Assembly: GCA_903863015.1 (NCBI GenBank)
Contig: CAIPAI010000043.1
Location: 5,634 to 69,633 of the forward strand
DNA: 64,000 nucleotides
Reading direction: 5' to 3'
Source: an uncultured Actinomycetes bacterium
GTDB lineage: Bacteria > Actinomycetota > Actinomycetes > Nanopelagicales > Nanopelagicaceae
The notes under the pieces were generated by a model. That model worked only from the letters and a program-made list of their open reading frames with translations, made no database searches and had not been told where the DNA came from. The stretch's first letter is position 1, and the number at the start of each line of letters is the position of its first letter. Below, one piece after another: positions 1,917 through 31,209 of this stretch. A program made the translations under genes and the position numbers.

Positions 1917-2707
1917 TGTCGCTCCTCTCCGAACTCTTCATCCGCACGCGCGCGGAGAACCGTGCCGCACTCATTGGCTACTTACCTGCAGGCTTTCCCA
2001 CTCAGGAGATGTCGATCAAGGTAATCAAGGCAATGATCGAAGGCGGCGTCGATGCCGTTGAGATCGGATTCCCTTATAGCGACCCAGTCATGGATGGTCC
2101 GATCATCCAAGAAGCCGCTGAAACAGCTCGCGCGGCTGGTATCACGATGAAGAAGACTCTTGAGGTGGTACGCGAAGTTGCTACCACCGGTGCACCCACG
2201 TTGATGATGACCTACTGGAACCCGATCGATCGGTACGGCGTTGAGCGTTATGCCGAAGATTTCCACGCAGCCGGCATGGAGGGCGTCATTACACCTGACC
2301 TCACCTTCGAAGAGGCTGATGAATGGCTTGGACTAACTGACCGACTTGGCCTCCATCCTATTTTCGTAGTGGCGCCTAGTACCGCAGATGAACGACTGAA
2401 ACTAGTCGCTTCAAAGTGCTCTGGCTTTATCTATGCAGCAAGCACCATGGGTGTGACTGGTGCACGAACTTCAGTCTCATCTGCAGCCAGCACACTTGTT
2501 GAGCGTCTCCGTGCAATTACCGATACGCCAGTCTGCGTAGGCCTTGGCGTTTCCAATGGCGAACAAGCGGCCGAGGTAGCCAAATATGCCGATGGTGTGA
2601 TCGTGGGTTCGGCTTTCGTGAAAGCGGTACTTGCTCATCCTGAAGATCCGCTTCCTGGAGTGCGCGCAGTTGCTGAAGATCTAGCTCGCGGAGTGCGCAA
2701 CCGCTAA
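1916..2707 (+). CDS. trpA: Tryptophan synthase alpha chain
   Basis: The ORF-track frame begins at 1895, but the ATG at 1916 overlaps the trpB TGA (TGATG) and gives MSLLSELF... The product shows typical TrpA motifs (EIGFPYSDPVMDGPIIQ, GFIYAAS.MGVTG). Confidence 0.95.
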   Translation: MSLLSELFIRTRAENRAALIGYLPAGFPTQEMSIKVIKAMIEGGVDAVEIGFPYSDPVMDGPIIQEAAETARAAGITMKKTLEVVREVATTGAPTLMMTYWNPIDRYGVERYAEDFHAAGMEGVITPDLTFEEADEWLGLTDRLGLHPIFVVAPSTADERLKLVASKCSGFIYAASTMGVTGARTSVSSAASTLVERLRAITDTPVCVGLGVSNGEQAAEVAKYADGVIVGSAFVKAVLAHPEDPLPGVRAVAEDLARGVRNR

Positions 2708-5355
2708 GCGACTTCCTTAGCCAAAGCTCTTGAAAGTATCGGCACCGCATCAGCCCAAGTCATTCCAAAGGTTTCTGCGAACACCGTTTCAAAACTCTTT
2801 CCACCAGCAACGTCTTTGTACATTTGCATGATGACATCTGGACCTTTGATAGCCGCAAAGATTTCACTCACCAAAAAGCCTACGTCGTAAAGCCGCCATT
2901 GCGGATAAGTTTCCCATGGCGCCCAGGACGGGGATGTTGATGGTCCAAGATATGCGTTAAACCATGCTTCGTTATACGTAGCGTTATGGATGAGCTCACC
3001 AGTATCACGGAGACGCTCCGCCAAATACGCATCGTACGACGCATAATCAAGGGCAGCGGCTTGCGAGAACTCAGCCCCACCTTCCAATAACCATCGTGGA
3101 AGATCCCAATAGTGGTAGGGAGTGCCTCTCATCTGAGTTTGTTGAATAGTGTGACTGTATTCATGAGCTTCCAGAGTGCCGTTCGAATGATTGGGATCAC
3201 TCTTCCCCCATGGACTCACAGCGCTCAGAATGATTCCATCGCCAGCAGTGTTCACCCAACTGCTGGCGCCCCAGCAGGTGCTTTCCGTTTGGCAATTATT
3301 TCTTGCCGCGCTATCCCCCGTCGCCAAACCTGTTTGCAGAGCTGCGTACTGCGCCTGTGCCCAATCAATGTCTTGATAGCCGTAATAGATCAGATAAAGA
3401 TGCGCAACTTGATTGAAACCTGCGTAAAGGCGTGACGCCAAATCAATTCCCACCCTTGGATTGGAATTATCCAATGTTGAGTTGGGGCCAATGAGTGTTG
3501 TGACTACCCCTACCGTCGCAGTTGAGGTCTCCACCTTGGCTTTGCTCTTCGTCCATGCAGCTAATGTGACTGCTGCAGGGTTTGCATTGAGTGCGGCCTC
3601 AAGGGTTCCAAGCGAAGTAAGGCTCACTGGCGTCGGGGTGGGCATTGGTGCCGGAGCAGGTGTGGGTACGTCGAGTGCAATGCGAATTTCGTCATTTGCA
3701 CCGTTACTCACCAAGGTTATTTTGAGCCCTGAGTAGGTCAAAGACTTCCCTGGAGTGTTGAGTAGGATCTGCTCCATAGAAATGCTGCCGCCGATAACAA
3801 GCGTGGGATACCAAGAATCTGCGGTTTTTCCATCCGGCCGTAAATACACGGCAAAGCGAGCAACATCATCACCGCGCCCCTCACCCGTTCGATCATTTTC
3901 AATACTTGTATCCACGAGGTATGCAGTCACGCCACCAAAGCTGTCATACCAACTTGGGCCCCATTTATCCTTGCGTCGAGATTCTATGACGAGCACCTGA
4001 TGATCGTTGAGGGTGATCATCGCAGAACGCACACCCGCTTCTTCACGTTCCATGGGAACTAATTTGACGGTCGTAGAAGTGATGTGATCCTTCGAAATGC
4101 AATAAACATCTCCAGGATTGAGCCACCCCGAAATAAGCGCATCCCATGTCGATAACGTCGAAGATTTTCCGGATTGATTTCCCATGATGTTGAGGTCCAC
4201 ATAATCATGTGGAGCGTGGCCTTCAAGACCGTAGGAGTGCATGACCTCGTGCATCCACCACGACCAGATTGGAAGGTTATTTGCATAGATGTACGCTCCC
4301 GGGGCAAAGAAACTAAAGCGCTGAGCCCCTTGATTTGTTTGCCAGGTACGTCCCCGTAAAGTGAATTCAGTTTCTACGGCGCGCGTAGCAGAGGGTAGTA
4401 AGAAGAAGACGGCACCCACTCCAGTGAAGTCGTAATAATCCTTCGCAGCCGTGATGAGCTGATTGCCCATCTCTACATCAGTCTGTGCTTGCGGAGTGGT
4501 TTGCCCGGCATACCCTCCTGACGGTGGATGTGCCCAGTTATATTGTGTTGACGGTTTAGGTGCGCGAATCCACTCGTTATGCACTTGCCATTGAAATTTC
4601 AACTTATCGTTGGTGTAGTACTTGAGCCAAGCATTTACATTATCAATTTGTGACTGACCCACATCCAAAGGTTTGCCGGAACCTGGTACATCTGAGAAAT
4701 CGATTGGGATGAAGGCCACCTTGGTAGTTCCGATTAACTGTAGATTCGGTTCTCGCGAGAAATCCGAAGCAGGGTATGCAACCGCCCCGGTCCAAGGTTG
4801 CGAACTCGTTGCACGATGATCCGTCAGCTGACATACCGAGAGTGGATCTCCCCCAGCAGTAGGTATCACTACGACTGGTGCTGGTGCTGGTGCGGGTGTC
4901 GGCACGGGAATTAAGGTTGGAGTAGGTGTTGGAGTAGGTGTTGGAGTAGGTGTTGAAGTAGGAGTCGGAACCGGCGTGGGTGCCGGCTCGATTGTGGACG
5001 TCTCTGCAGGTTTTGGCGGGGTAGCGCATCCGGCTGATGTTGTCGGGGATGTTGCTGTCGCGCAGAGCGTGGGAAGCGGTTTTGGCGTGGGAGTCGGTAT
5101 TGGTTTTGGTGTGGGAGTCGTTATTGGTTTTGGTGTGGGAGTTGGTGTTGGCTTTGGCTTGGAGATCACAGGGCTCTTCACCACTTGCCAGAGCTTCTTC
5201 TTTCCCACCTGAGCACAGATGAGTTGTTGGCTCTTTAAAGTAGTTTTCTGCCCGATCTTGGTGCAGGTGGATCCGACCTTAACCGATGCGGCAGAGGCCG
5301 GGATTGAGAGCAACAGTGCGAGTGCCGCCGCCATGAGAACCCGCAGAGTACGCAC
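2704..5355 (-). CDS. Secreted multidomain protein with two zincin HExxH motifs: an M6/InhA-like N-terminal catalytic region and a gluzincin-like C-terminal region. It also has PT-rich linkers.
   Basis: The 883-aa ORF starts with signal peptide MRTLRVLMAAALALLLSIPASA. WWMHEVMHSYGLEGH is encoded at 4237-4251. HEYSH is encoded at 3151-3165 and is followed 22 residues later by WLLEGGAEF, which resembles the M1-type WLxEG third-ligand motif. Two PT/PA linkers are present. Confidence 0.8.
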   Translation of the reverse strand: MRTLRVLMAAALALLLSIPASAASVKVGSTCTKIGQKTTLKSQQLICAQVGKKKLWQVVKSPVISKPKPTPTPTPKPITTPTPKPIPTPTPKPLPTLCATATSPTTSAGCATPPKPAETSTIEPAPTPVPTPTSTPTPTPTPTPTPTLIPVPTPAPAPAPVVVIPTAGGDPLSVCQLTDHRATSSQPWTGAVAYPASDFSREPNLQLIGTTKVAFIPIDFSDVPGSGKPLDVGQSQIDNVNAWLKYYTNDKLKFQWQVHNEWIRAPKPSTQYNWAHPPSGGYAGQTTPQAQTDVEMGNQLITAAKDYYDFTGVGAVFFLLPSATRAVETEFTLRGRTWQTNQGAQRFSFFAPGAYIYANNLPIWSWWMHEVMHSYGLEGHAPHDYVDLNIMGNQSGKSSTLSTWDALISGWLNPGDVYCISKDHITSTTVKLVPMEREEAGVRSAMITLNDHQVLVIESRRKDKWGPSWYDSFGGVTAYLVDTSIENDRTGEGRGDDVARFAVYLRPDGKTADSWYPTLVIGGSISMEQILLNTPGKSLTYSGLKITLVSNGANDEIRIALDVPTPAPAPMPTPTPVSLTSLGTLEAALNANPAAVTLAAWTKSKAKVETSTATVGVVTTLIGPNSTLDNSNPRVGIDLASRLYAGFNQVAHLYLIYYGYQDIDWAQAQYAALQTGLATGDSAARNNCQTESTCWGASSWVNTAGDGIILSAVSPWGKSDPNHSNGTLEAHEYSHTIQQTQMRGTPYHYWDLPRWLLEGGAEFSQAAALDYASYDAYLAERLRDTGELIHNATYNEAWFNAYLGPSTSPSWAPWETYPQWRLYDVGFLVSEIFAAIKGPDVIMQMYKDVAGGKSFETVFAETFGMTWADAVPILSRALAKEVA
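4876..5160 (-). repeat. Tandem short-period repeats encoding the Pro-Thr/Pro-Lys linker of the secreted zincin protein
   Basis: Repeated ggtgttggagta units and ~30-nt ggttttggtgtgggagt(c/t)g units are visible. They translate to KPTPTPTPKPITTPTPKPIPTPTPKP...TPTPTPTPTPTPT. Confidence 0.85.
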
Positions 5356-11402: not shown

Positions 11403-12932
11403 TTACTTGCGTGCACTCGCCGCGTGTTTACGGGTAGTGCCGCCAGCAATCCAGAAGACCACTCCCACCAGCACAAAGAAGAGAACTGGCACTGCCTCGG
11501 TGAAGAGGAACTTCCAGCGCTCTGATTGCTCCCAGCCATCTGGTCGGAAGTCATCACCAAACCAATCCACTCCTAGTCCTGGCGCCACCAATTGGAGAGA
11601 GGCGAAGGCCACGATCAGCGTGAGCCAGACCGAGAGGAACTTGGCCCAAGGTGCGCGGTAAGGACGTGGATGATCGGGGTGAGTGACCCGCAAGCGCCAG
11701 AGCGCAGGGAAAATTGCTAAGTATGAGAGCAAGGTAGTGGAGACCGCAATGCCAAGAACTGCAGTGAAGTACTTCATGGCATTGCCTTCACTGATGGTGC
11801 GTGCCATCACAAGAACTGCAGTCGAGAGCAGACCACTCAAAATGTTGACTCGCACTGGGGTTCCGTACTTTGCCGAGATCACTCCCAGTGAGCGGGGGGC
11901 CGCGCCGTCATAGCCGGAAACGGCGAGCGAACGATCAGACCCCATAATCCAGGTAACTCCTGAAGAGAGCACGCAGATGATGAAGAGGAGCCCGCCAATT
12001 CCACCGAGGAAAGCGCCAAAGCCGGTGAGGACAACTCCGTCAGCCCCGGTTGATCCACCGTAGATGGTGAAAACAGCCTTGATCGCGTCGAGGAAACCAC
12101 CGAGATTGGAGACATCTTGCGTGGGAAGCACCACGAGAATGCCAAGGATGGGCAGACCGTAAAGCAATACAGCTGCGATCGCGGCACGGAAGAGACCGTA
12201 GGGGATATCGCGACGCGGATCCTTCATCTCATCGCCGGCACTATTAGGAAGTTCGAATCCGACGTAATTAAAGAGCAGCACACCTGCGAGTGCAACCAGC
12301 CCAGCGAAGGAAATCCCGAAGTCGCCGACATGGACGCCATGAACGCCATTCTTAAATCCGTAGATGACTACCGATATGGAGAAGAAGCCAAGGAGGATGA
12401 ACCGAGCGAAGGCTCCAAAGGTAGGAATCCACTTGCCCACCTTGAAAGAAAGAATGGCGCTCGTGACACCAATCCAGATAAAGGCGAGAGTAAAGATGTA
12501 CCACCAAATATTTGACATCGGATGACCGTTGAGGAAGAAGGTCTCATACGCGGTCGCTCCAACAAGGGCGAGTGTGCCGCCGAGCCAGACTGGGTTCGTC
12601 ACCCAGTAGAGCACATTGTTGATCGCGGCAGCGAGCCGACCGAAAGCTAAGCGCGCCCAGAGATATGAGCCACCCTCTTGTGGGAATGATGTACCGAGTT
12701 CAGCGAAGAGAAGTGCTTGTGGCACAAAGAAGACGATGGCGAAGATGATTAACCAGGTAAATGCCTGAGCACCCGATGCCGCAACTGTTCCGATCGTATC
12801 GATTCCCACCAAAGTGCAAATGGTGAAGAAGAGAATGTCGTATCTACCGAAGTGCTTTTGCAAATGCGCAGTTTCAGTGAGTGCATCGGACGTGAGATCA
12901 AGCTCTTTAGCCAAGCCGCTATCTATGGACAT
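11403..12932 (-). CDS. APC-superfamily amino acid/polyamine permease
   Basis: 509-aa ORF with about 12 predicted hydrophobic segments and an APC-like N-terminus (FFTICTLVGIDTIG). Confidence 0.85.
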   Translation of the reverse strand: MSIDSGLAKELDLTSDALTETAHLQKHFGRYDILFFTICTLVGIDTIGTVAASGAQAFTWLIIFAIVFFVPQALLFAELGTSFPQEGGSYLWARLAFGRLAAAINNVLYWVTNPVWLGGTLALVGATAYETFFLNGHPMSNIWWYIFTLAFIWIGVTSAILSFKVGKWIPTFGAFARFILLGFFSISVVIYGFKNGVHGVHVGDFGISFAGLVALAGVLLFNYVGFELPNSAGDEMKDPRRDIPYGLFRAAIAAVLLYGLPILGILVVLPTQDVSNLGGFLDAIKAVFTIYGGSTGADGVVLTGFGAFLGGIGGLLFIICVLSSGVTWIMGSDRSLAVSGYDGAAPRSLGVISAKYGTPVRVNILSGLLSTAVLVMARTISEGNAMKYFTAVLGIAVSTTLLSYLAIFPALWRLRVTHPDHPRPYRAPWAKFLSVWLTLIVAFASLQLVAPGLGVDWFGDDFRPDGWEQSERWKFLFTEAVPVLFFVLVGVVFWIAGGTTRKHAASARK

Positions 12933-19747: not shown

Positions 19748-21502
19748 ATGAAGAAGAGCGGAAAATTCCTCACCGGCATCGTCGCTGTTATTGCCCTGGT
19801 CGCGGCTGGAAGCGCGCGCGCCGAAGTAGTCGTCCCTGAAGATTTCGGCATGCAACCCATGTACGGAACCGTGGTCAGTGATGGCACGCTCTTCTCGAAC
19901 CAATCCGTTTCCAGCGTCTCGGCACACACTCCGCCTGACCAAACGACCGGCAAAGGCGGTGGTAATTGGGTCTGCAAGAATTTCGATGACCCAAATTGCC
20001 AAACACAATCCTGGATGGACGGAACGATCATCCTCTCCCCATGCAGCAAGACCACGGAACCAGTTTGTATCGACTCACTCTCAATTGGCAGAGATGGCGA
20101 AAAACTCTCTCCCGCTACCTTGGCATTTGAAGCCGTCTCGCAGAAGATTCCTGCAAGTCCTGCATCAGGGGTCCCAGCCGGTGGAAGTGCGAGTCTCTGG
20201 AAGAGTTCAGGAGTACCCAACGCCTTCGGAAGCAATGACTACTTAGTAGTGGTCGCGATGACGTATTCCAAGAATAAAGGTACGGAGAAGGCAACACTGA
20301 ACGGCTTCACTGCAAATGTACTTCCCGCTCAAGTAAGAACTGGTGATACCTACTACGCGGCTGAGAGCTTCACTGAAACCTCGAGCACCGGCATGCCGCA
20401 AGCAGGCGTGGGCTGGCGAGGTGCTCGCGGAATGATCAACCACAGCGAGTGCGAAATGACCACCGATGGATACTGCTTTATTCGTGAAGATTTCTCGGCG
20501 AATACCAAGGTGTCCATCAACTTACATTTGAATAACAGCCTCACCGGCTGGCTCTTTGGACGATTAAAGACTCCAACAATTTCCGTAAGCAAAATTTCTG
20601 ACTCAATCAACCAACTCACCGTTGAGGCCCTGCCCACTGTTGTGCCTAACTTGGTGGGCGCAGTTTTGAAATCTGATCTCTCTAAGAATCCAAAGATTGA
20701 CAACTATCTCAAAGGAAAGGGATACCCGGGCGAAATCGAGAACTACAACCGAATAGTCGGCACTAGTGGGTTTGATGGTTCCCTCGGAAGTGGCATGAAT
20801 AACCTCGAGCGTTTCAGAGTTTTCGAGGAAGTACTGAAGGTCTACTCAGGCAATGATTCGAGATTCCAGAAATTTACTCGCTGGACTTTTGGATCTACCC
20901 AATATGACGCAAGTGGCGCCGGTAGCGCGTGCTTTTCTGATAAAACCAAGTTGGTAGGTATCGTTACAACTAATTCACCGTTTTATGAATCGGGCCCTCC
21001 TAAGTTCAAAGATGATTCGTTAAACTATGTCGTTGCTGGACCGCACTTTGACGTGGATGGCAAGACGCTCTTCTCCGGTGTCTATGACTTGAATATGCGC
21101 TCTGAAGCCGCCCGCTGTCTCTACGGTTTCTCGTCGGCGCCGCTTAAAGCAGTTGTTTCGGTAACGTCTGCAGATGGCTCAACCCAAGATGTGCAGACCG
21201 AAGCTTTAAGTGAGAAGGATGGTTGGCTCCACCTCGGGGCGTACAACTTCCATTTCTCCCAGCCCACCATCCGCATCAAACTTTCACAAGAGAAGACCGT
21301 GGTGCCAACTCCTGCCGCTACGCCTACTTCCACCCCGAACGCTCCTGCGGCCACGACTCCTGCACCCAAGGCAAATGCGCCAGCCGCTCCGGCAATACCA
21401 AATAAAGCAAAGACCATCATTATCACTTGCGTGAAGGGGAAGACGACCAAGAAAGTAGTGGGCACCAACCCCACGTGTCCCGCCGGATATAAGAAGAAGT
21501 AA
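19748..21502 (+). CDS. Secreted protein of unknown function with a PA/PT linker and a C-terminal Cys-pair Lys-rich module
   Basis: 584-aa ORF with signal peptide MKKSGKFLTGIVAVIALVAAGSARA. I recognise no catalytic motif. The C-terminus reads ...PTPAATPTSTPNAPAATTPAPKANAPAAPAIPNKAKTIIITCVKGKTTKKVVGTNPTCPAGYKKK. Confidence 0.75.
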   Translation: MKKSGKFLTGIVAVIALVAAGSARAEVVVPEDFGMQPMYGTVVSDGTLFSNQSVSSVSAHTPPDQTTGKGGGNWVCKNFDDPNCQTQSWMDGTIILSPCSKTTEPVCIDSLSIGRDGEKLSPATLAFEAVSQKIPASPASGVPAGGSASLWKSSGVPNAFGSNDYLVVVAMTYSKNKGTEKATLNGFTANVLPAQVRTGDTYYAAESFTETSSTGMPQAGVGWRGARGMINHSECEMTTDGYCFIREDFSANTKVSINLHLNNSLTGWLFGRLKTPTISVSKISDSINQLTVEALPTVVPNLVGAVLKSDLSKNPKIDNYLKGKGYPGEIENYNRIVGTSGFDGSLGSGMNNLERFRVFEEVLKVYSGNDSRFQKFTRWTFGSTQYDASGAGSACFSDKTKLVGIVTTNSPFYESGPPKFKDDSLNYVVAGPHFDVDGKTLFSGVYDLNMRSEAARCLYGFSSAPLKAVVSVTSADGSTQDVQTEALSEKDGWLHLGAYNFHFSQPTIRIKLSQEKTVVPTPAATPTSTPNAPAATTPAPKANAPAAPAIPNKAKTIIITCVKGKTTKKVVGTNPTCPAGYKKK

Positions 21503-21503
21503 A

Positions 21504-21917
21504 GTGATGAAGCAAGTCCGCTTGATCATGGCTGCGTTGCTTGCTATTGGATTGCTTGCTTGCACTTCACAGACTTCCACGGCAGCCACTGCGACCAGCA
21601 AACTGAAAATCGTTTTCCAAGAATCACCGGACTCGCCAAAAGAGACCTGGACCCTCAACTGCAAACCAAACAGTGGCACTTTCCCTGGCATTGCGATGGC
21701 CTGCAAGAAACTAGCTTCATTGAAGAATCCATTCGCTAAGCCTTCAGCAGATCAAATGTGCACAGAAATCTATGGCGGGGATCAAACCGCGATGATCACC
21801 GGAACCTGGCTGGGAAAGAAAGTAAGCCGTAAATATTCACGAATTAATGGCTGCGAAATTGACGCTTGGGAGAGCATCTATCCCGTACTCCCCCGCGTAC
21901 AGGGTGTTACTCAGTAA
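21504..21917 (+). CDS. SSI-family (Streptomyces subtilisin inhibitor-like) protease-inhibitor lipoprotein
   Basis: 137-aa ORF with lipobox LLAC. Cysteine spacing is C-x13-C and C-x30-C, close to the SSI disulfide pairs. Family motifs include WTLNC.P..G, MCTEIYGG, ITGTW.GKKV and a C-terminal NGC. A GTG/ATG start lies 1-4 nt after the upstream stop. Confidence 0.7.
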   Translation: MMKQVRLIMAALLAIGLLACTSQTSTAATATSKLKIVFQESPDSPKETWTLNCKPNSGTFPGIAMACKKLASLKNPFAKPSADQMCTEIYGGDQTAMITGTWLGKKVSRKYSRINGCEIDAWESIYPVLPRVQGVTQ

Positions 21918-22125
21918 GAAGTCCTCCGTGGATTGTGAGCACCTTCGCATCAAGCGCGCTGATCAATCGAAGATCATGTTCCGAAATAATGACGAGAGCG
22001 CCATCACGCGCCTTTGCGTTGAGTATGGACGCAGTATTCATAGAGAGTACTTCTTGAAAGCCCGGCACGCGCAGCGACCGCAGCGCGTCGTCGCTCGCGA
22101 TGATCTGCAACGTTTGAAGCCTCAA
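21907..22125 (-). pseudogene. C-terminal fragment of an ABC-transporter ATPase (Walker B, D-loop and H-loop region only); probable gene remnant
   Basis: The 72-codon ORF has a TTG start. LQIIASDDALRSL...GALVIISEHDLRLISALDAKVLTIHGG aligns by eye to hhhhDEPtsaLD...tvl.vtHd...a..ladrv..l..G. Walker A, Q-loop and the LSGGQ signature are absent, and no room remains upstream because rlmN ends at 22152. Confidence 0.45.
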
Positions 22126-22151
22126 TCTTTAGCCTAAGGAAATTCGGCCAC

Positions 22152-23285
22152 CTAATCCGCAGGAGCGCCTGTGATCGCGATTTCGCTAGCCGCAAGCTGA
22201 CCGCACGCGCCATCAATGTCGCGACCACGCGTATCTCGCACGGTTACTGCGACTCCATACGCCTCGAGTAGGCGGACGAAGGTATCTTCATCCTCCTGGC
22301 GAGAAGCCGTCCACTTTGACCCGGGGGTGGGGTTGAGTGGAATGAGGTTTACGTGGGCGTTGCGATTCTTCAACAAGCGACCAAGGAGATCTGCGCGCCA
22401 TGCCTGATCGTTGATGTCGCGGATGAGGGCGTACTCGATTGAGTAGCGACGACCGGTCTTATTCGAATAGGCATCGGCGGCTTCAAGAACTTCACTGACT
22501 TTCCAACGAGTATTGATGGGAACGAGTGTGTCGCGCAATTCGTCATCGGGCGCGTGGAGTGAAACGGCCAGAGTGACTGGGATGTCTTCATCGATCAACT
22601 TCATGATCGCAGGAACGAGGCCAACAGTTGAGAGCGTGACCGAACGCGCACCGATCGCTAAACCTTCTGGATGCGGGGAAGTAATGTTGCGAATCGATTG
22701 AATGACCGCGTTGTAATTGGCGAGTGGTTCTCCCATACCCATGAAAACCACATTCGAGAGGCGCATGGTGCCGCCAGGGATCTCGCCACTATCAAGAGCG
22801 CGAGCAGCCATCACGACTTGTTCAGTAATTTCACCTGCGGTGAGGTTACGAGTAAGGCCACTTTGACCGGTGGCGCAGAATGGACAATTCATTCCACACC
22901 CGGCTTGCGATGAAATACAGACCGTTGCGCGGTCGGAGTAACGCATGATGACGCTCTCGACGAGAACACCGTCGTGCATCTTCCAGAGGTCCTTGCGTGT
23001 TCGACCGCGATCGCATTCGAGCGAACGAACCGGAGAGAGAAGTTCTGGAAGGAGGAGGTCCTTCAATGTGCCCCGAAGGTCTACAGGAATATCGCTCCAG
23101 GTATCTGGATTGTTATTCAAATGTTCAAAGTAGTGCAGTGCTACTTGCTTGGCACGAAAACCAGGTAGCCCAAGGTCTTCGGCAAACTTCTTGCGATCCT
23201 TTGCTGGTACATCGCTGATGTGCTGAGGTGCTTTCTTGCCGCGCTTAGGCGCTGCGAAGACCAACTCTCCCGGCTTTAGCGCCAT
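22152..23285 (-). CDS. rlmN: 23S rRNA/tRNA m2A methyltransferase, radical SAM
   Basis: 377-aa ORF with the radical-SAM cluster motif [12 protein letters not shown] and RlmN-like termini. Confidence 0.95.
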
Positions 23286-27112: not shown

Positions 27113-27442
27113 GGCCGCACACTCCTTTCGCATCCGGGCAAGCTGCGCCGGACGCACTCGGTTGATGGCAGGTACCGGTTGGTACTTGCCCCTGACATCC
27201 CACGCTTGACCCAAAGGACCGAGTGGAGTGTGGGCTACGTGGGAGCAAGCCCCCGGTAACCCACGGTGTGGGATGTGCGATGTCACCGCTTTCACGGTGC
27301 GGGCTAAGGGTATCGGAGCGGGCAGGCTGGGCGCGAACTCGGGTCGCGGCGCCCCTTCCACAGGAGTGGGCCCTCCCGGGAGAGCGTCCACAGCCACCCT
27401 CGAAGAAGCCCCGCGGGCGGGATTGACGCTCACCCTGGGGCG
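27113..27442 (-). other. Unusually long, G+C-rich untranslated region between the divergent rpsB and M23 genes; candidate structured 5' leader or ncRNA
   Basis: About 330 nt carries no credible ORF, in a genome where most spacers are under 50 nt. Several short GC hairpins are visible, for example CCCACggtGTGGG near 27260-27272, CACCGctttcaCGGTG at 27284-27299, and GTACCggttGGTAC at 27172-27185. Confidence 0.3.
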
Positions 27443-27952
27443 ATGAGACACCTCCCCGCCCACTTAATGATCGCTGGCACCTTGACCCTGGCTCCCGCCG
27501 GTCTGGCGCTCGCCTCCGCCACCCCGTCGCCCAGCGCGCCCCACACCCTGCACACGTGGCGCCTGCCGCTGGCTACTACCCAACTCCTTCGCCCGTTTAC
27601 CCCGCCGACCAGGCGTTATGGGCGCGGCCATCGAGGCGTGGATCTCACCGCCACGATCGGAAGCCCGGTCTGCGCCCCCGCCGATGGCACCCTCACCTTC
27701 GTCGGTCAGGTCAACCACGTGGCCACCGTGGTCCTCGCCCATGGCGCCGGATATCGCTCCACCTACCAATCCGTGACCTCGCGCTTGAAGGTGGGCACCA
27801 CAATCACCGCTGGTGAAGCCTTCGGCATAGTGAGCGCTTCCGGACATCTCGCAGGACCCACCTGCCTTCACTGGGGATTACTTCAAGGGCCCACCTATCT
27901 CGACCCGCTCTCGCTGCTGCCGCACTTGCAGACCCATCTCCTACCCTCTTAG
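27443..27952 (+). CDS. Secreted M23/LytM-family peptidase-like protein
   Basis: 169-aa ORF with a signal-like N-terminus. HRGVD is encoded at 27629-27643. The C-terminal motif reads CLHWG (27863-27877) where the canonical motif is HxH. Its position next to rpsB is conserved among actinobacteria. Confidence 0.8.
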
Positions 27953-28254: not shown

Positions 28255-31209
28255 ATGTCTGGAGCACCTCTCGATCCCGTTGAAACCGTTAAGAAATACT
28301 TCGGAATCGATGGGAGTGCCACGCAACTTAACGGCGAACGAGATCTCAATTACCGCATCACCACAGCAGTAGATGGCGCCACCCGAGACTATGTCTTAAA
28401 AATTCATCAACCTGGACATCGTGATTGGCTCTCGTTGCAAGATCGCGCGCTCACCGCACTCTCACATTTAGCGCCACACCTTCCCATCCCAGTGCGCGCA
28501 CTAGGTGGCGAAATATCGGTCGATATCCCCGGTGGTCGCACCGCACGTTTACTCACTTGGGTAGCGGGCAGCGCCTGGGCGGAAACCGAAACCACGAGCA
28601 CCGATCTGCGCGACCTCGGAACTATTTTGGGGCGTATTGATAAAGAACTCGCAAAGATGGAGATCACCGAACCCGTCGAAGAGATTCTGACTCGAGAATT
28701 TATGTGGAACATGATGCAGGCGGGTCGCCTCTCGCAACACGTGCATCGCATCACTGACGAAACGTTGCGAAATGTAGTCATCGAAGTACTTGAAGATTTC
28801 CGCGAAGAACAACTTCCAAAACTTGCGCTCTTACCGCGGCAGATGATTCATAACGATGCCAACGATTACAACATCTTTGTCAGCGAACGCGGCATCGGTG
28901 TGATCGACTTTGGCGACATCGTGCTTGGCGCCAAAATTATTGGCCTCGCAGTTGCAGCTTCGTACGCTGCCATCGGTCACGATGACCCAGTAAAAGCGCT
29001 TTTGCCACTTGTGCGCGGTTATCACATCACCTCACCGCTCTCCCCTAGTGAATTAGAGCTACTCCTGCCGCTCACTAAGGTGCGGCTGGCGATGAGCGTT
29101 GTGAACGCAGCCGTACAGAGTGCCGCAGACCCCACCAACGAATACTTAAACATCAGTCAGGGCGTTATCCCCGCGCTTCTCTTGCAATTGCATGCCACTG
29201 ATTTCAATCATTCACTTTTCCGCTTCCGCGATGCGTGTGGTTACGAAGGAAATCCCAACTCACGCGCCGTGCGTCAATACCTATCGACAGTGGCAAGGCG
29301 CGCAGACGTGGTTTGTCCACCATTTAAGGACCATAAGTACATCTACTTAGATTGGTCAGTTGAGAATACTTCCATCCCGCGATGGAGCGAAGATATCGCC
29401 AATCTCATGGCATCCAAAGGTGCAGATGTTGCGATTGGTCATTACTGTGAAAACCGAAATGTTTACCAAGGCGATGCTTACAACACAGCAAGCCCCAGTG
29501 CACGCACGATTCACTTGGGCGTCGATCTCTTTCTCCCAGCAGGTTCGCCCGTTTATTCCGCGCTCGATGGTGTAGTCGATGCCTTTAACGACAACAACAC
29601 CCCACTCGACTACGGCCCAGTCATTCTTCTGCGCCACGAAACCACCGAAGGCATTCCCTTCTGGACGCTCTATGGTCACCTCTCGCGCGAATCACTTCCT
29701 AAACTTTCAGTAGGAATGAAAGTCAACGCTGGCGATCAAATCGCCACCATCGGTCAAGAACACGAAAATGTTGGCTGGCCCCCACATACCCACTTCCAAC
29801 TGCTGACAGATCTTTGTGGCATGGGACTTGATGTGTATGGCGTAGCACCGAAGGATGAGATCTCGCTCTGGCGCAGCATCTCACCGAATCCCAACTTGGC
29901 GCTCGGAATCGCCAGTGGAACCGACGCACACGCACACCTTGCAACCGACGTCATTCGTGAAGATCGAACGACGGTGCTCTCGCGAAATCTCAGTCTCAAC
30001 TTCCGAACACCACTCGAGATAGTGCGCGGTGAAGGCGCATATCTCTACGACGTTAATGGGAAGGCCTATCTCGACCTGGTAAATAACGTGGCGCACGTCG
30101 GCCACGGACATCCCCGCGTGGTTGCCGCCGGGGCCGCGCAGATGGCCGCACTTAATACCAATACGCGCTACCTCCACCAAAATATTGTGGAATATGCCCG
30201 CGCACTTACCAGCACACTCCCGGATCCGCTGAGTGTGGTCTTCTTCGTGAACTCCGGAAGCGAAGCAAACGATCTAGCCATTCGCCTCGCTCGTGCACAC
30301 ACAAAAGCCCGCGGCTTCATCGCACTCAAGCATGCCTACCACGGTCATACCGCAAGTGTGGTCGACATCAGCCCTTACAAGTTCCTCGGCAAGGGTGGGC
30401 TAGGCGCGCCCGATCATGTGCGCGTAGCTAACCTTCCCGATCCTTATCGCGGGGTACACAAGGGCGAAGCGGCCGGCAGTCAATACGCCGCAGACTTTGC
30501 CGCCACACTCGCAGACCTCAATCAGCCACTCGCCGCGTTTATCTCAGAAGGCATCGTCAGCACTGCAGGACAAATCGTGCTCGCCGATGGATTCCTGAAG
30601 AACGCCTACGAACAAGTACGCGCCGTTGGCGGGCTTGCAATCGCAGATGAAGTGCAAATTGGTTTAGGTCGTGTGGGCAACAAATTCTGGGGATTTGAGT
30701 TGCACGATGTGGTGCCAGATATCGTCACCATGGGCAAGCCGCTCGGAAATGGTCACCCACTTGCCGCGGTTGTCACCACCCCCGAAGTAGCTGCTTCTTT
30801 CCATAACGGCATGGAGTACTTCAACACCTTTGGTGGCAATCCAGTGAGCGCAGCAATTGGTCTTGCGGTGCTAGAAGTTGTGCAAGATGGTCACCTCCAA
30901 GCCAATGCCATCAACATGGGTAAGTACCTCACTGATGGCGTGCGAGAGATGAGTAAGCGCCATTCAATGATTGGCGACGTGCGTGGATCCGGTCTCTTTA
31001 TCGGCGTGGAATTAATGCGCGACGAAAAACCAGCCACCGAAGAGATGGGCGACCTCATCGAGTACGCCAAAGAACGCGGCGTCTTCCTTTCGTGTGATGG
31101 CCCTGATAACAACGTGCTGAAGATCAAACCGCCCATGGTGCTCACTACCAAGGATGTTGATCTCTTCTTGAATATCTTCGACGAGGGTTTAGGCGCAGTT
31201 AAACGCTAA
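28255..31209 (+). CDS. Three-domain fusion protein: APH-type (hydroxylysine-kinase-like) phosphotransferase, M23/LytM-like domain, and class III PLP phospho-lyase/aminotransferase (ETNPPL/PHYKPL-like)
   Basis: 984-aa ORF without a signal peptide. The kinase domain carries [12 protein letters not shown] (His at 28849) and VIDFGD. The M23 domain carries IHLGVD (29512-29526), YGHLS and PHTHFQ (29785-29793). The C-terminal domain carries [11 protein letters not shown] and [19 protein letters not shown], with the PLP lysine at 30736-30738. Confidence 0.9.

What the first reader, a model, noticed from the sequence alone, without database searches (positions are those of the whole stretch)
19748..21917. 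Translationally coupled pair: orphan 584-aa secreted protein plus SSI-family protease-inhibitor lipoprotein
**The pair.**
- A large Sec-signal protein with no motif I can assign is followed 1-4 nt later by a 137-aa lipoprotein.
- The lipoprotein's cysteine spacing (C-x13-C and C-x30-C) and motifs (MCTEIYGG, TGTW.GKKV, NGC) fit the Streptomyces subtilisin inhibitor fold.

**Predicted P1 residue.**
- In SSI the reactive-site P1 residue lies two positions after the third Cys (Cys71-x-Met73).
- By that alignment P1 here would be Glu (C-T-E-I).
- That would point to a Glu-specific target protease rather than a subtilisin.

**Why it matters.**
- The tight coupling suggests a functional pair. The big protein could be a novel hydrolase kept latent by the inhibitor, or a surface protein protected from proteolysis.
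- No cognate serine protease gene is present in the window.
- The pair is wedged between a catabolic cluster and the rlmN backbone, next to an ABC-ATPase gene remnant, which suggests an accessory insertion.
Basis: partly seen in the sequence, partly recalled or inferred. Interest (0 to 1): 0.65.

Follow-up and report, generated by a model that had tools for sequence, protein, structure and literature searches.

The report
Protease inhibitor beside orphan surface protein
A freshwater actinobacterium encodes a genuine SSI-type protease inhibitor, probably lipid-anchored and with glutamate at its specificity site, directly after one copy of a large, multi-copy, uncharacterised secreted protein family; the two are neighbours in one genus only, and nothing shows they work as a pair.

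Summary
Both ORFs are real and conserved. B is best read as 136 aa starting at ATG 21507. It is an SSI-family inhibitor: Pfam PF00720 scores above its cut-off, all four cysteines align with SSI, and the predicted structure matches only SSI, SSTI and sermetstatin. Glu88 aligns with SSI Met73, the P1 residue. Across the wider subfamily that position varies (E/Q/M) inside a fixed C-T-x-I-Y-G-G frame, as expected for a specificity residue. NCBI already annotates a close relative as an SSI family inhibitor.

A belongs to an unannotated family of freshwater Actinobacteria. It has several copies per genome, often in tandem. It has a variable N-terminal part, a conserved C-terminal domain, a Pro/Thr linker and a basic disulfide-hairpin tail. 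Its confident model matches no solved or viral structure, and I found no catalytic signature.

The proposed functional pairing is not supported. Only 3 of 79 family-A loci carry B, and all three are the same syntenic slot in one genus. Two A types only 40% identical precede the same B. Distant B homologues stand alone. The 4-nt gap equals the genome's median spacing. The "ABC remnant" is the scar of a ~4.4 kb deletion. A tail-bearing S1 protease in the same genus is a candidate target (inference).

The parts
19748..21502 (+). Gene A: 584-aa secreted protein of an unannotated, multi-copy family from freshwater Actinobacteria ('type 1' at this slot)
   Evidence: ORF. 152 homologues, all 'hypothetical' and without Pfam domains. 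No Pfam, NCBIfam, PHROGs or PADLOC hit. AF2 model pLDDT 84.3, pTM 0.80, almost all beta. No Foldseek hit at E<=1e-3 in PDB or BFVD.
19748..19822 (+). Sec signal peptide of A (aa 1-25, ...GSARA|EVV)
   Evidence: Read from the sequence. Low-pLDDT N-terminal helix. No Cys, so not a lipoprotein signal.
19823..20923 (+). Variable N-terminal part of A (aa 26-392), with invariant Cys pairs C76/C84 and C99/C107, and C235/C243 (invariant among 36 sequences, at least 90% among 117)
   Evidence: Alignments A1 and A2. Mean most-common-residue frequency is about 0.3. Type 1 versus type 2 identity is 0.22-0.36.
20924..21292 (+). Conserved C-terminal domain of A (aa 393-515; VTTNS..Y..GPP, Y.VAG.H, YDL..RS..ARCLYGFS.AP, EKDGW...A.GF.FS.PTI)
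   Evidence: Mean most-common-residue frequency 0.65. Type 1 versus type 2 identity 0.61. Invariant columns listed.
21293..21412 (+). Pro/Thr/Ala-rich low-complexity linker of A (aa 516-555)
   Evidence: Sequence. pLDDT below 50 at residues 536-553. Length varies across the family.
21413..21499 (+). Basic Cys-hairpin C-terminal tail (KTIIITCVKGKTTKKVVGTNPTCPAGYKKK), a putative wall/surface-association module
   Evidence: Conserved family-wide, with C561 and C577 invariant among 36 sequences and at least 90% among 117. Modelled as a beta-hairpin with pLDDT above 90. The segment from aa 552 has pI 10.2 against 5.4 for the globular part. The same tail sits on fn3, YHYH, CAP and trypsin-domain proteins.
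21507..21917 (+). Gene B: 136-aa SSI-family (PF00720) protease-inhibitor homologue, probably a lipoprotein (alternative GTG start at 21504)
   Evidence: Pfam SSI E=1e-9. PDB profile hits 3sic/3ssi ~1e-9, 6i0i 7e-9, 4hwx 2e-5. AF2 core pLDDT above 90. Foldseek top 14 hits all SSI family. A cluster member is named 'SSI family serine proteinase inhibitor' by NCBI.
21552..21563 (+). Lipobox-like L-L-A-C (Cys20 in 137-aa numbering)
   Evidence: Sequence. A lipobox-like motif occurs in 94 of the 150 best subfamily representatives. The nearest relatives read LLTC or ILTF, so the call is likely but not secure.
21600..21875 (+). SSI domain core, with two disulfides inferred by alignment (C53-C67 and C86-C117)
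   Evidence: All four Cys align with SSI Cys35/50/71/101. Confident strands and helices.
21759..21770 (+). Putative reactive-site segment C86-T87-E88-I89 (P3-P2-P1-P1'); Glu88 corresponds to SSI Met73
   Evidence: HMM alignment 'CteiYGG' against 'CPMVYD' of 3ssi. The segment lies in a loop of the model. The P1-equivalent varies E54/Q42/M21/D5/K5/R4... within a fixed C-T-x-I-Y-G-G frame.
21907..22125 (-). Remnant ORF. Its 3' part (to about 21992) is the C-terminal end of an ABC-transporter ATPase that is intact in relatives
   Evidence: tblastn 61% over 41 aa to L010 8114-8236. DNA homology stops at window 21992, equivalent to L010 8196. Full gene in L010, L080 and L088.
22079..22228 (-). Remnant of the first ~50 codons of a TetR regulator; other edge of the ~4.4 kb deletion
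   Evidence: DNA homology resumes at window 22079, equivalent to L010 12607. The L010 TetR gene is at 12076-12756.

Best explanation
These are two separate cell-envelope genes that are probably co-transcribed, not a dedicated enzyme-inhibitor pair. B is exported and most likely lipid-anchored at Cys20. It folds as an SSI domain with two disulfides and presents a canonical substrate-like loop, C86-T87-E88|I89-Y90. By analogy with SSI, the loop would block the active site of a serine protease, and the P1 glutamate would favour an enzyme that accepts acidic side chains. The target is unknown. A plausible candidate is a surface-tail-bearing trypsin-family (S1) protease encoded in a MAG of the same genus; a foreign protease is also possible. 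A is exported by Sec. It has a disulfide-rich, beta-rich ectodomain whose N-terminal two-thirds vary, a conserved C-terminal domain, a Pro/Thr spacer and a strongly basic disulfide hairpin. That tail is a module shared with other secreted proteins and probably holds them on the wall or membrane surface. A is one copy of an expanded, tandemly duplicating family, and gain and loss of copies makes this slot variable. Shown here: the family assignment and P1 alignment of B, the architecture, distribution and lack of known fold of A, the synteny, the two A types and the deletion. Inferred: inhibition itself, the Glu preference, the target, the anchoring role of the tail, and the surface location and non-enzymatic nature of A.
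For: B: Pfam SSI above the gathering score. The profile matches SSI, SSTI and sermetstatin, with all four Cys aligned and E88 on Met73. The AF2 model matches only SSI-family structures at prob 1.0. The P1-equivalent position is variable inside a conserved frame across 150 representatives. Engineered P1 variants of SSI exist as complexes with subtilisin and trypsin (titles of 3sic, 5sic and 2tld). A: signal peptide, ten conserved Cys (six invariant and four at 90% or more among 117 sequences), linker and tail. There are 124 family-A genes in 79 loci, with arrays of up to five copies within one locus. No neighbour family occurs in more than 12 of the 79 loci. The tail is found on fn3, YHYH, CAP and trypsin-domain proteins. 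Relationship: B follows A only in L009, L010 and L012 plus the L080-L090 loci, which are all the same syntenic slot of one genus. Type 1 and type 2 A are 40% identical, while B stays 78-83% identical. Other A paralogues in the same MAGs have no B. Distant B homologues have no A upstream. The 4-nt spacing equals the genome median. An S1 protease with the same tail is encoded in the MAG that also holds L012.
Against: No biochemical data exist for any member of this SSI subfamily or of family A. A-B adjacency is conserved across at least four lineages, with flanks about 82-89% identical at DNA level and only 4-9 nt between the genes, so a looser functional link (for example B shielding A from proteolysis) cannot be excluded. 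Acidic P1 residues are uncommon in characterised SSI-family inhibitors (my recollection of the literature, not checked here). The loop could therefore serve another purpose. Lipidation is uncertain because close relatives have Thr at position -1 or no Cys. The A model was compared only with PDB and BFVD, not with AlphaFold DB, so a cryptic enzymatic fold is not formally excluded. The conserved polar residues R272, N409, H433, R456 and E489 could form a functional site.
Confidence: 0.55

Rival explanations
1. Dedicated latent enzyme-inhibitor pair: A is a novel hydrolase or protease kept inactive by B until release.
For: Same strand with a 4-9 nt gap in all members of the genus. A has no assigned function, so enzyme activity cannot be formally excluded.
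Against: A has no protease or hydrolase motif or fold match. About 120 of the 124 family-A genes in the 79 loci have no B next to them, including paralogues in the same MAGs. B keeps 78-83% identity while the preceding A switches between types only 40% identical. B's subfamily is widespread without A.
Confidence: 0.05
2. B is a guardian of the surface: it is co-expressed with A to protect A and other tail-anchored envelope proteins from foreign proteases (grazer or competitor enzymes) or from the cell's own tail-anchored S1 protease.
For: Probable co-transcription. Both products are exported. A tail-anchored S1 protease exists in the same genus. Surface structures are linked to grazing resistance in freshwater Actinobacteria (Tarao et al. 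2009, as cited in PMC12817590; the paper itself could not be read).
Against: Only one of three or four A paralogues per genome sits beside B. There is no evidence of the target or of expression. This overlaps with the best explanation and differs only in claiming that the adjacency has a purpose.
Confidence: 0.2
3. B acts mainly on a metalloprotease through a second site, as sermetstatin and SSTI do. A possible target is the window's secreted 883-aa HExxH protein (2704-5355, minus strand).
For: SSTI (6i0i) and sermetstatin (4hwx; 4hx3 in complex with snapalysin) are among the closest structures. The 883-aa ORF has a signal peptide, a basic Cys module, a PT linker and HEVMHSYGLEGH plus HEYSH.
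Against: The 883-aa ORF has no significant family hit. Its motif is HExxHxxGxxxH, one residue off the metzincin consensus. It lies 15 kb away on the other strand. No metalloprotease-binding loop could be mapped in B.
Confidence: 0.07
4. B belongs functionally to the convergent Fe/heme-type ABC uptake cluster (FecCD permease, Peripla_BP_2, ATPase, two small secreted proteins, TetR) that abuts it in relatives.
For: In L010, L080 and L088 the 3' end of B overlaps the ATPase gene by 11 nt, and the cluster is conserved next to B.
Against: The window lost about 4.4 kb of that cluster but keeps an intact B. The exact 136-aa B sequence is recorded on 8 contigs, and close variants occur in several metagenomes. 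The genes are convergent, not co-oriented. Distant B homologues lie in unrelated contexts.
Confidence: 0.04
5. Polymorphic toxin plus immunity protein.
For: A large variable secreted protein is followed by a small conserved ORF, and the slot is variable.
Against: The polarity is wrong: the N-terminal part of A varies and the C-terminal part is conserved. B does not change with the A type. B has a signal peptide and an inhibitor fold. There are no PADLOC or PHROGs hits.
Confidence: 0.02

Closest known systems
Streptomyces subtilisin inhibitor (SSI; Pfam PF00720, MEROPS I16; PDB 3ssi, 2sic)
   Same: Same domain by HMM and by predicted fold. All four cysteines and the Cys-x-P1-P1'-Tyr frame align. 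The position of the reactive loop is the same.
   Different: B has a lipoprotein-type signal instead of being a free secreted dimer. P1 is Glu rather than Met. The loop frame is C-T-E-I-Y-G-G-D-Q rather than C-P-M-V-Y-D-P. Sequence identity is about 30%. B comes from a streamlined freshwater actinobacterium. Inhibition and dimerisation are untested.
SSTI (Streptomyces subtilisin and TAMP inhibitor, 6i0i) and sermetstatin/ScNPI (4hwx, 4hx2, 4hx3)
   Same: Best or near-best structural and sequence matches. They show that this fold can carry a second site against metalloproteases.
   Different: No second reactive site could be mapped in B. No confirmed metalloprotease partner was found.
Uncharacterised 'CT[E/Q/M]IYGG' SSI-like (lipo)proteins of Actinobacteria, which PGAP annotates as 'SSI family serine proteinase inhibitor'
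   Same: B is a member of this group. There are 2,686 cluster representatives at E<=1e-3, with the same motif frame and frequent lipoboxes. An NCBI name exists for a member of B's own 90% cluster.
   Different: Nothing sets B apart within this group except its position after a family-A gene.
Non-covalent cell-surface anchoring modules of Gram-positive bacteria (SLH, LysM, GW, basic C-terminal tails) - an analogy for A's tail only
   Same: A short terminal module placed after a flexible Pro/Thr spacer on many unrelated secreted domains. It is strongly basic.
   Different: There is no sequence relationship to any curated family. It is about 29 aa with one conserved Cys pair. Its binding partner is unknown and anchoring is inferred, not shown.

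Membership tests
SSI family (Pfam PF00720 / MEROPS I16) | Match to the family HMM above the curated threshold | tested here: met
   PF00720 E=1e-9, 38.7 bits against a gathering score of 23.9, aa 43-109 on profile positions 18-86 of 92. 13 of 14 homologues carry PF00720.
SSI family (Pfam PF00720 / MEROPS I16) | Four cysteines at the positions of the SSI disulfides Cys35-Cys50 and Cys71-Cys101 | tested here: met
   C53, C67, C86 and C117 align with the four SSI cysteines. The spacing is C-x13-C and C-x30-C. All four are invariant in alignment A3. Disulfide formation itself is inferred.
SSI family (Pfam PF00720 / MEROPS I16) | SSI alpha/beta fold | tested here: met
   AF2 core pLDDT about 90, with strands and two helices in SSI order. 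The Foldseek top 14 PDB hits are all SSI, SSTI or sermetstatin at prob 1.00, with target-normalised TM 0.48-0.61.
SSI family (Pfam PF00720 / MEROPS I16) | Exposed reactive-site loop with P1 two residues after the third Cys | tested here: met
   E88 aligns with Met73 and the segment is a loop in the model. The position varies (E/Q/M/D/K/R...) within a fixed frame across 150 representatives.
SSI family (Pfam PF00720 / MEROPS I16) | Tight-binding inhibition of a serine protease (standard mechanism) | not testable with these tools
   Requires purified protein and enzyme assays.
SSI family (Pfam PF00720 / MEROPS I16) | Homodimer | not tested
   No multimer prediction was available.
Bacterial lipoprotein (Lgt/LspA substrate) | Signal peptide ending in a lipobox [LVI][ASTVI][GAS]C | tested here: inconclusive
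   The window has L-L-A-C20. Distant homologues read VAGC, LSAC, LTGC, LLAC and LMAC. The closest relatives read LLTC or ILTF with no Cys. 94 of 150 representatives are lipobox-like.
Translationally coupled gene pair | Overlapping or abutting stop and start codons (e.g. ATGA, TAATG), with spacing that stands out from the genomic background | tested here: not met
   TAA, then AGTG, then ATG, giving a 4-nt gap (1 nt if GTG is used). The gap is 4 nt in L088 and 9 nt in L010. The genome's median same-strand gap is 4 nt. Co-transcription remains likely.
Co-conserved functional pair (A with B) | The two families co-occur across genomes beyond shared synteny | tested here: not met
   3 of 79 family-A loci carry B, and all three are the same slot in one genus. 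No partner family occurs in more than 12 of 79 loci. Distant B homologues have no A nearby.
Sortase/LPXTG or other C-terminal sorting-signal proteins (for A) | Sorting motif followed by a hydrophobic helix and a basic tail | tested here: not met
   The tail has no LPXTG motif and no hydrophobic stretch. There is no NCBIfam sorting-domain hit.
Hydrolase or protease (for A) | Recognisable catalytic fold or motif | tested here: not met
   No hit in Pfam, NCBIfam or the PDB-sequence profile search. No Foldseek hit at E<=1e-3 in PDB or BFVD. AlphaFold DB was not available.
Polymorphic toxin / immunity pair | Conserved N-terminal part with a variable C-terminal toxin domain, and an immunity gene that co-varies with the toxin | tested here: not met
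   The N-terminal part is variable and the C-terminal part conserved. B is unchanged between the two A types.

The most novel reading that the evidence does not exclude
Family A is the main variable surface-coat protein family of abundant freshwater Actinobacteria. It would have a previously unseen fold and be held on the cell by a new ~29-aa basic disulfide-hairpin anchor shared by many exoproteins. The lipid-anchored, Glu-P1 SSI inhibitor would be placed behind it to control a co-anchored S1 protease or to neutralise grazer or competitor proteases. Together they would form a small surface-protection module relevant to phage and grazing resistance.
Probability: 0.12. Interest if true: 0.6.

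Novelty: new member of a known kind. Interest (0 to 1): 0.3.

Why it matters
B adds little on its own. It is one more SSI-family member and public annotation already recognises it. It does belong to a very large, unstudied, mostly lipoprotein subfamily whose P1 is mainly Glu, Gln or Met, which implies targets other than the classical subtilisin. The more useful result concerns A. It defines a widespread, multi-copy, tandemly expanding family of secreted proteins in some of the most abundant freshwater bacteria, with a confident predicted structure that matches nothing solved. It also carries a portable basic Cys-hairpin tail that marks a set of surface-displayed proteins, including S1 proteases. 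That gives a concrete handle on the poorly known cell envelope of these organisms, which bears on phage and grazer interactions. None of this depends on A and B being a pair.

Tried and rejected
1. The latent hydrolase idea. I found no catalytic fold or motif in A with Pfam, NCBIfam, a PDB-sequence profile, or Foldseek against PDB and BFVD.
2. Phage or defence origin. There were no PHROGs or PADLOC hits, and no family-A relative in IMG/VR viral contigs.
3. An obligate partner gene for family A. Clustering the neighbours of 79 loci found none.
4. A profile search with the 42-aa tail, meant to list the domains that carry it. It returned only 31-74 aa fragments and was uninformative. Pfam scans of tail-bearing ORFs in the fetched loci replaced it.
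5. Promoter and terminator scan and Rfam. Nothing informative.
6. Literature searches on this SSI subfamily, on Glu-P1 SSI and on family A found nothing specific. Tarao et al. 2009 was not held.
7. The window's 883-aa HExxH ORF as a cognate metalloprotease. It has no family support, and the motif is one residue off the metzincin consensus.
8. Allele replacement at the A slot. The better reading is differential retention of two tandem paralogues (type 2 then type 1, as in L001/L088), with a homogenised 3' end.
9. Naming the organism from housekeeping proteins. The exact sequences were not in the collection, and relatives are labelled only Actinomycetota or Actinomycetes MAGs.
Full report
**Observation.** The two ORFs exist as described. 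A is at 19748-21502 (584 aa, ATG) and B at 21504-21917 (137 aa from GTG), on the + strand. B's cysteines lie at 20, 53, 67, 86 and 117, which gives the stated C-x13-C and C-x30-C spacing, and the quoted motifs are all present. Both are real genes. A has 152 or more homologues. B has 14 by word search and 2,686 cluster representatives by exhaustive profile search. One correction: the conserved start of B is ATG 21507 (136 aa). All homologues begin there, the GTG is absent in L088, and the exact 136-aa product is in the public collection. The gap after A's TAA is therefore 4 nt, with no overlap.

**What B is.**
- Pfam SSI (PF00720) matches at E=1e-9, 38.7 bits against a cut-off of 23.9.
- A profile of B's family hits SSI (3sic, 3ssi, about 1e-9), SSTI (6i0i, 7e-9) and sermetstatin/ScNPI (4hwx, 2e-5). 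All four cysteines align, and 'CTEIYGG' lies over 'CPMVYD', so Glu88 falls on SSI Met73, the P1 residue.
- The AF2 model has a core pLDDT of about 90. Among solved structures it retrieves only SSI-family chains in its top 14, at probability 1.00.
- In the 150 best representatives of the subfamily the frame C-T-x-[IVQL]-Y-G-G is fixed, while the P1-equivalent varies: E 54, Q 42, M 21, D 5, K 5, R 4 and others. This is the pattern expected of a specificity-determining P1. In B's near relatives it is always Glu.
That Glu implies a Glu-specific target is inference. It rests on established canonical-inhibitor behaviour and on the engineered SSI P1 variants listed (3sic, 5sic, 2tld).
- NCBI already names a member of B's 90% cluster 'SSI family serine proteinase inhibitor', so this is not a discovery.
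- The lipoprotein call is likely but not secure. The window has LLAC, and most distant homologues have good lipoboxes, but the closest relatives read LLTC or lack the Cys.

**What A is.** A has no hit in Pfam, NCBIfam, PHROGs, PADLOC or PDB sequences. Its homologues are all unnamed proteins from freshwater Actinobacteria: Nanopelagicaceae, Planktophila, Rhodoluna and unclassified MAGs. The architecture is as follows:
- a Sec signal peptide;
- a variable region, aa 26-392, with invariant Cys pairs;
- a conserved domain, aa 393-515;
- a Pro/Thr/Ala linker;
- a 29-aa basic tail, TIIITCVKGKTTKKVVGTNPTCPAGYKKK, with two conserved cysteines.

The AF2 model is confident (pLDDT 84.3, pTM 0.80) and nearly all beta, and the tail forms a hairpin. 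It matches nothing at E<=1e-3 in PDB or BFVD. AlphaFold DB was not available, so 'no known fold' is provisional. The globular part is acidic (pI 5.4) and the tail basic (pI 10.2). The same tail ends unrelated secreted proteins carrying fn3, YHYH, CAP and trypsin domains. I therefore read it as a portable surface-association module; this is inference. The family has several copies per genome and often forms tandem arrays of two to five genes. It is absent from viral contigs.

**Are A and B a functional pair?** The evidence is against it.
- Of 79 family-A loci from species-representative genomes, holding 124 family-A genes, only L009, L010 and L012 have an SSI-like gene, and it lies directly downstream of A.
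- Those three loci, and the further contigs L080-L090, are the same syntenic slot in close relatives of the window's organism. Their flanking proteins are 90-98% identical and the DNA 82-89% identical.
- Other A paralogues in the same MAGs have no B.
- At this slot two A types occur that are only 40% identical. The window has type 1, L010 has type 2, and L001/L088 have type 2 then type 1 in tandem. In the window, L010 and L088, where the downstream sequence is available, B follows the last A gene and stays 78-83% identical.
- Only the 3' end of A (linker and tail) is homogenised between the types.
- Distant B homologues stand alone.
- No neighbour family accompanies A in more than 12 of 79 loci.
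- The 4-nt spacing equals the median for this 95.5%-coding window. It argues for co-transcription, not for special coupling.

**Surroundings.** Upstream is a catabolic cluster: aldehyde dehydrogenase, AsnC-type regulator, class-III aminotransferase, Pyridox_ox_2, DAO and acyl-CoA dehydrogenase. Downstream, relatives carry an ABC ATPase, a FecCD permease, Peripla_BP_2, two small secreted proteins and TetR before rlmN. The window keeps only the last codons of the ATPase and the first ~50 codons of TetR. Homology breaks at window 21992 and resumes at 22079, against L010 8196 and 12607, so the window carries a ~4.4 kb deletion. The pair is thus not a recent insertion. It occupies a conserved position whose A content and downstream neighbours vary.

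**Possible target.** No S1 or S8 signature is present in the window. However, the MAG that contains L012 also encodes a trypsin-family protease (L017 12487-13455). It scores 57 bits on Pfam Trypsin and has the TAAHC and GDSGSP motifs, a signal peptide, a PT linker and the same tail. A similar protease lies next to a family-A gene in L054. Its residue 189 aligns as Thr, so its specificity is unknown. It is a reasonable but untested candidate for B's target.

**Verdict.** B is a new member of a known inhibitor family. A is a member of an uncharacterised but widespread envelope-protein family. The pairing is a lineage-specific adjacency.

Noticed in passing
window 21413-21499; also L032 7481-10228, L035 7592-8821, L048 7647-9236, L054 604-1956, L017 12487-13455: A ~29-aa basic tail with two conserved cysteines (consensus TITCVKGKxxKKVTGxxPKCPxGYKKK) follows a Pro/Thr linker. 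It ends not only family-A proteins but also secreted proteins with fn3, YHYH, CAP and trypsin domains. It looks like an undescribed portable surface-association module of freshwater Actinobacteria.
   Followed up: partly
L017 12487-13455 (+); L054 604-1956 (-): Trypsin-family (S1) proteases with an intact triad, a signal peptide, a PT linker and the same basic Cys tail. One is in the MAG that also carries the A-B pair (L012). The other lies divergently next to a family-A gene. They are candidate targets of the SSI-like inhibitor.
   Followed up: partly
window 2704-5355 (-): An 883-aa secreted ORF. After the signal peptide it has a basic Cys...Cys module resembling the family-A tail, then a long PT linker, then HEVMHSYGLEGH (HExxHxxGxxxH, one residue off the metzincin consensus) and a second HEYSH. 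It has no significant family or structure match. It may be a surface metalloprotease.
   Followed up: partly
window 21992-22079 versus L010 8196-12607: A ~4.4 kb deletion in the window removed most of the ATPase and TetR genes and all of the FecCD permease, Peripla_BP_2 binding-protein and two small secreted-protein genes. Only the two gene ends remain.
   Followed up: yes
L010 10731-11231 and 11259-12050 (+): Two small secreted proteins lie next to the Fe/heme-type ABC transporter. They give only weak, sub-threshold Neocarzinostatin-family hits (E 5e-5 and 5e-4). They could be ligand-capturing partners of the transporter.
   Followed up: no
L039 4114-13297, L065 1402-9366, L049 3-8408: Tandem arrays of five family-A genes per locus, separated by about 3 nt or slightly overlapping. 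L039 and L065 overlap on one Microbacteriaceae contig, so together they imply more than five copies there. L049 is from a Planktophila MAG. This shows ongoing tandem expansion of the family.
   Followed up: partly
L002 1-4244: The contig reads: ACAD 3' end, type-1 A, the first 10 codons of B ending in a stop, ACAD codons 264-389 again, then type-2 A. It is either a chimeric assembly of co-existing strains or a real rearrangement at this slot.
   Followed up: partly
P0135, P0136, P0140, P0141 and other subfamily representatives: Some members of B's subfamily contain two tandem SSI domains with different P1-equivalent residues (for example Ser/Gln, Lys/Gln, Met/Glu). They may be double-headed inhibitors.
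   Followed up: no
window ~27130-27950: A stretch of 64-71% GC in a ~53% GC genome lies between rpsB and the next gene. It covers the rpsB upstream region and a 169-aa ORF (27443-27952, +) that looks like a secreted M23-type peptidase judged by eye. The composition is unexplained: horizontal acquisition or an assembly join are both possible.
   Followed up: no
window 28255-31209 (+): A 984-aa fusion protein that combines an APH-type phosphotransferase domain, a Peptidase_M23 domain and a class-III aminotransferase domain.
   Followed up: no
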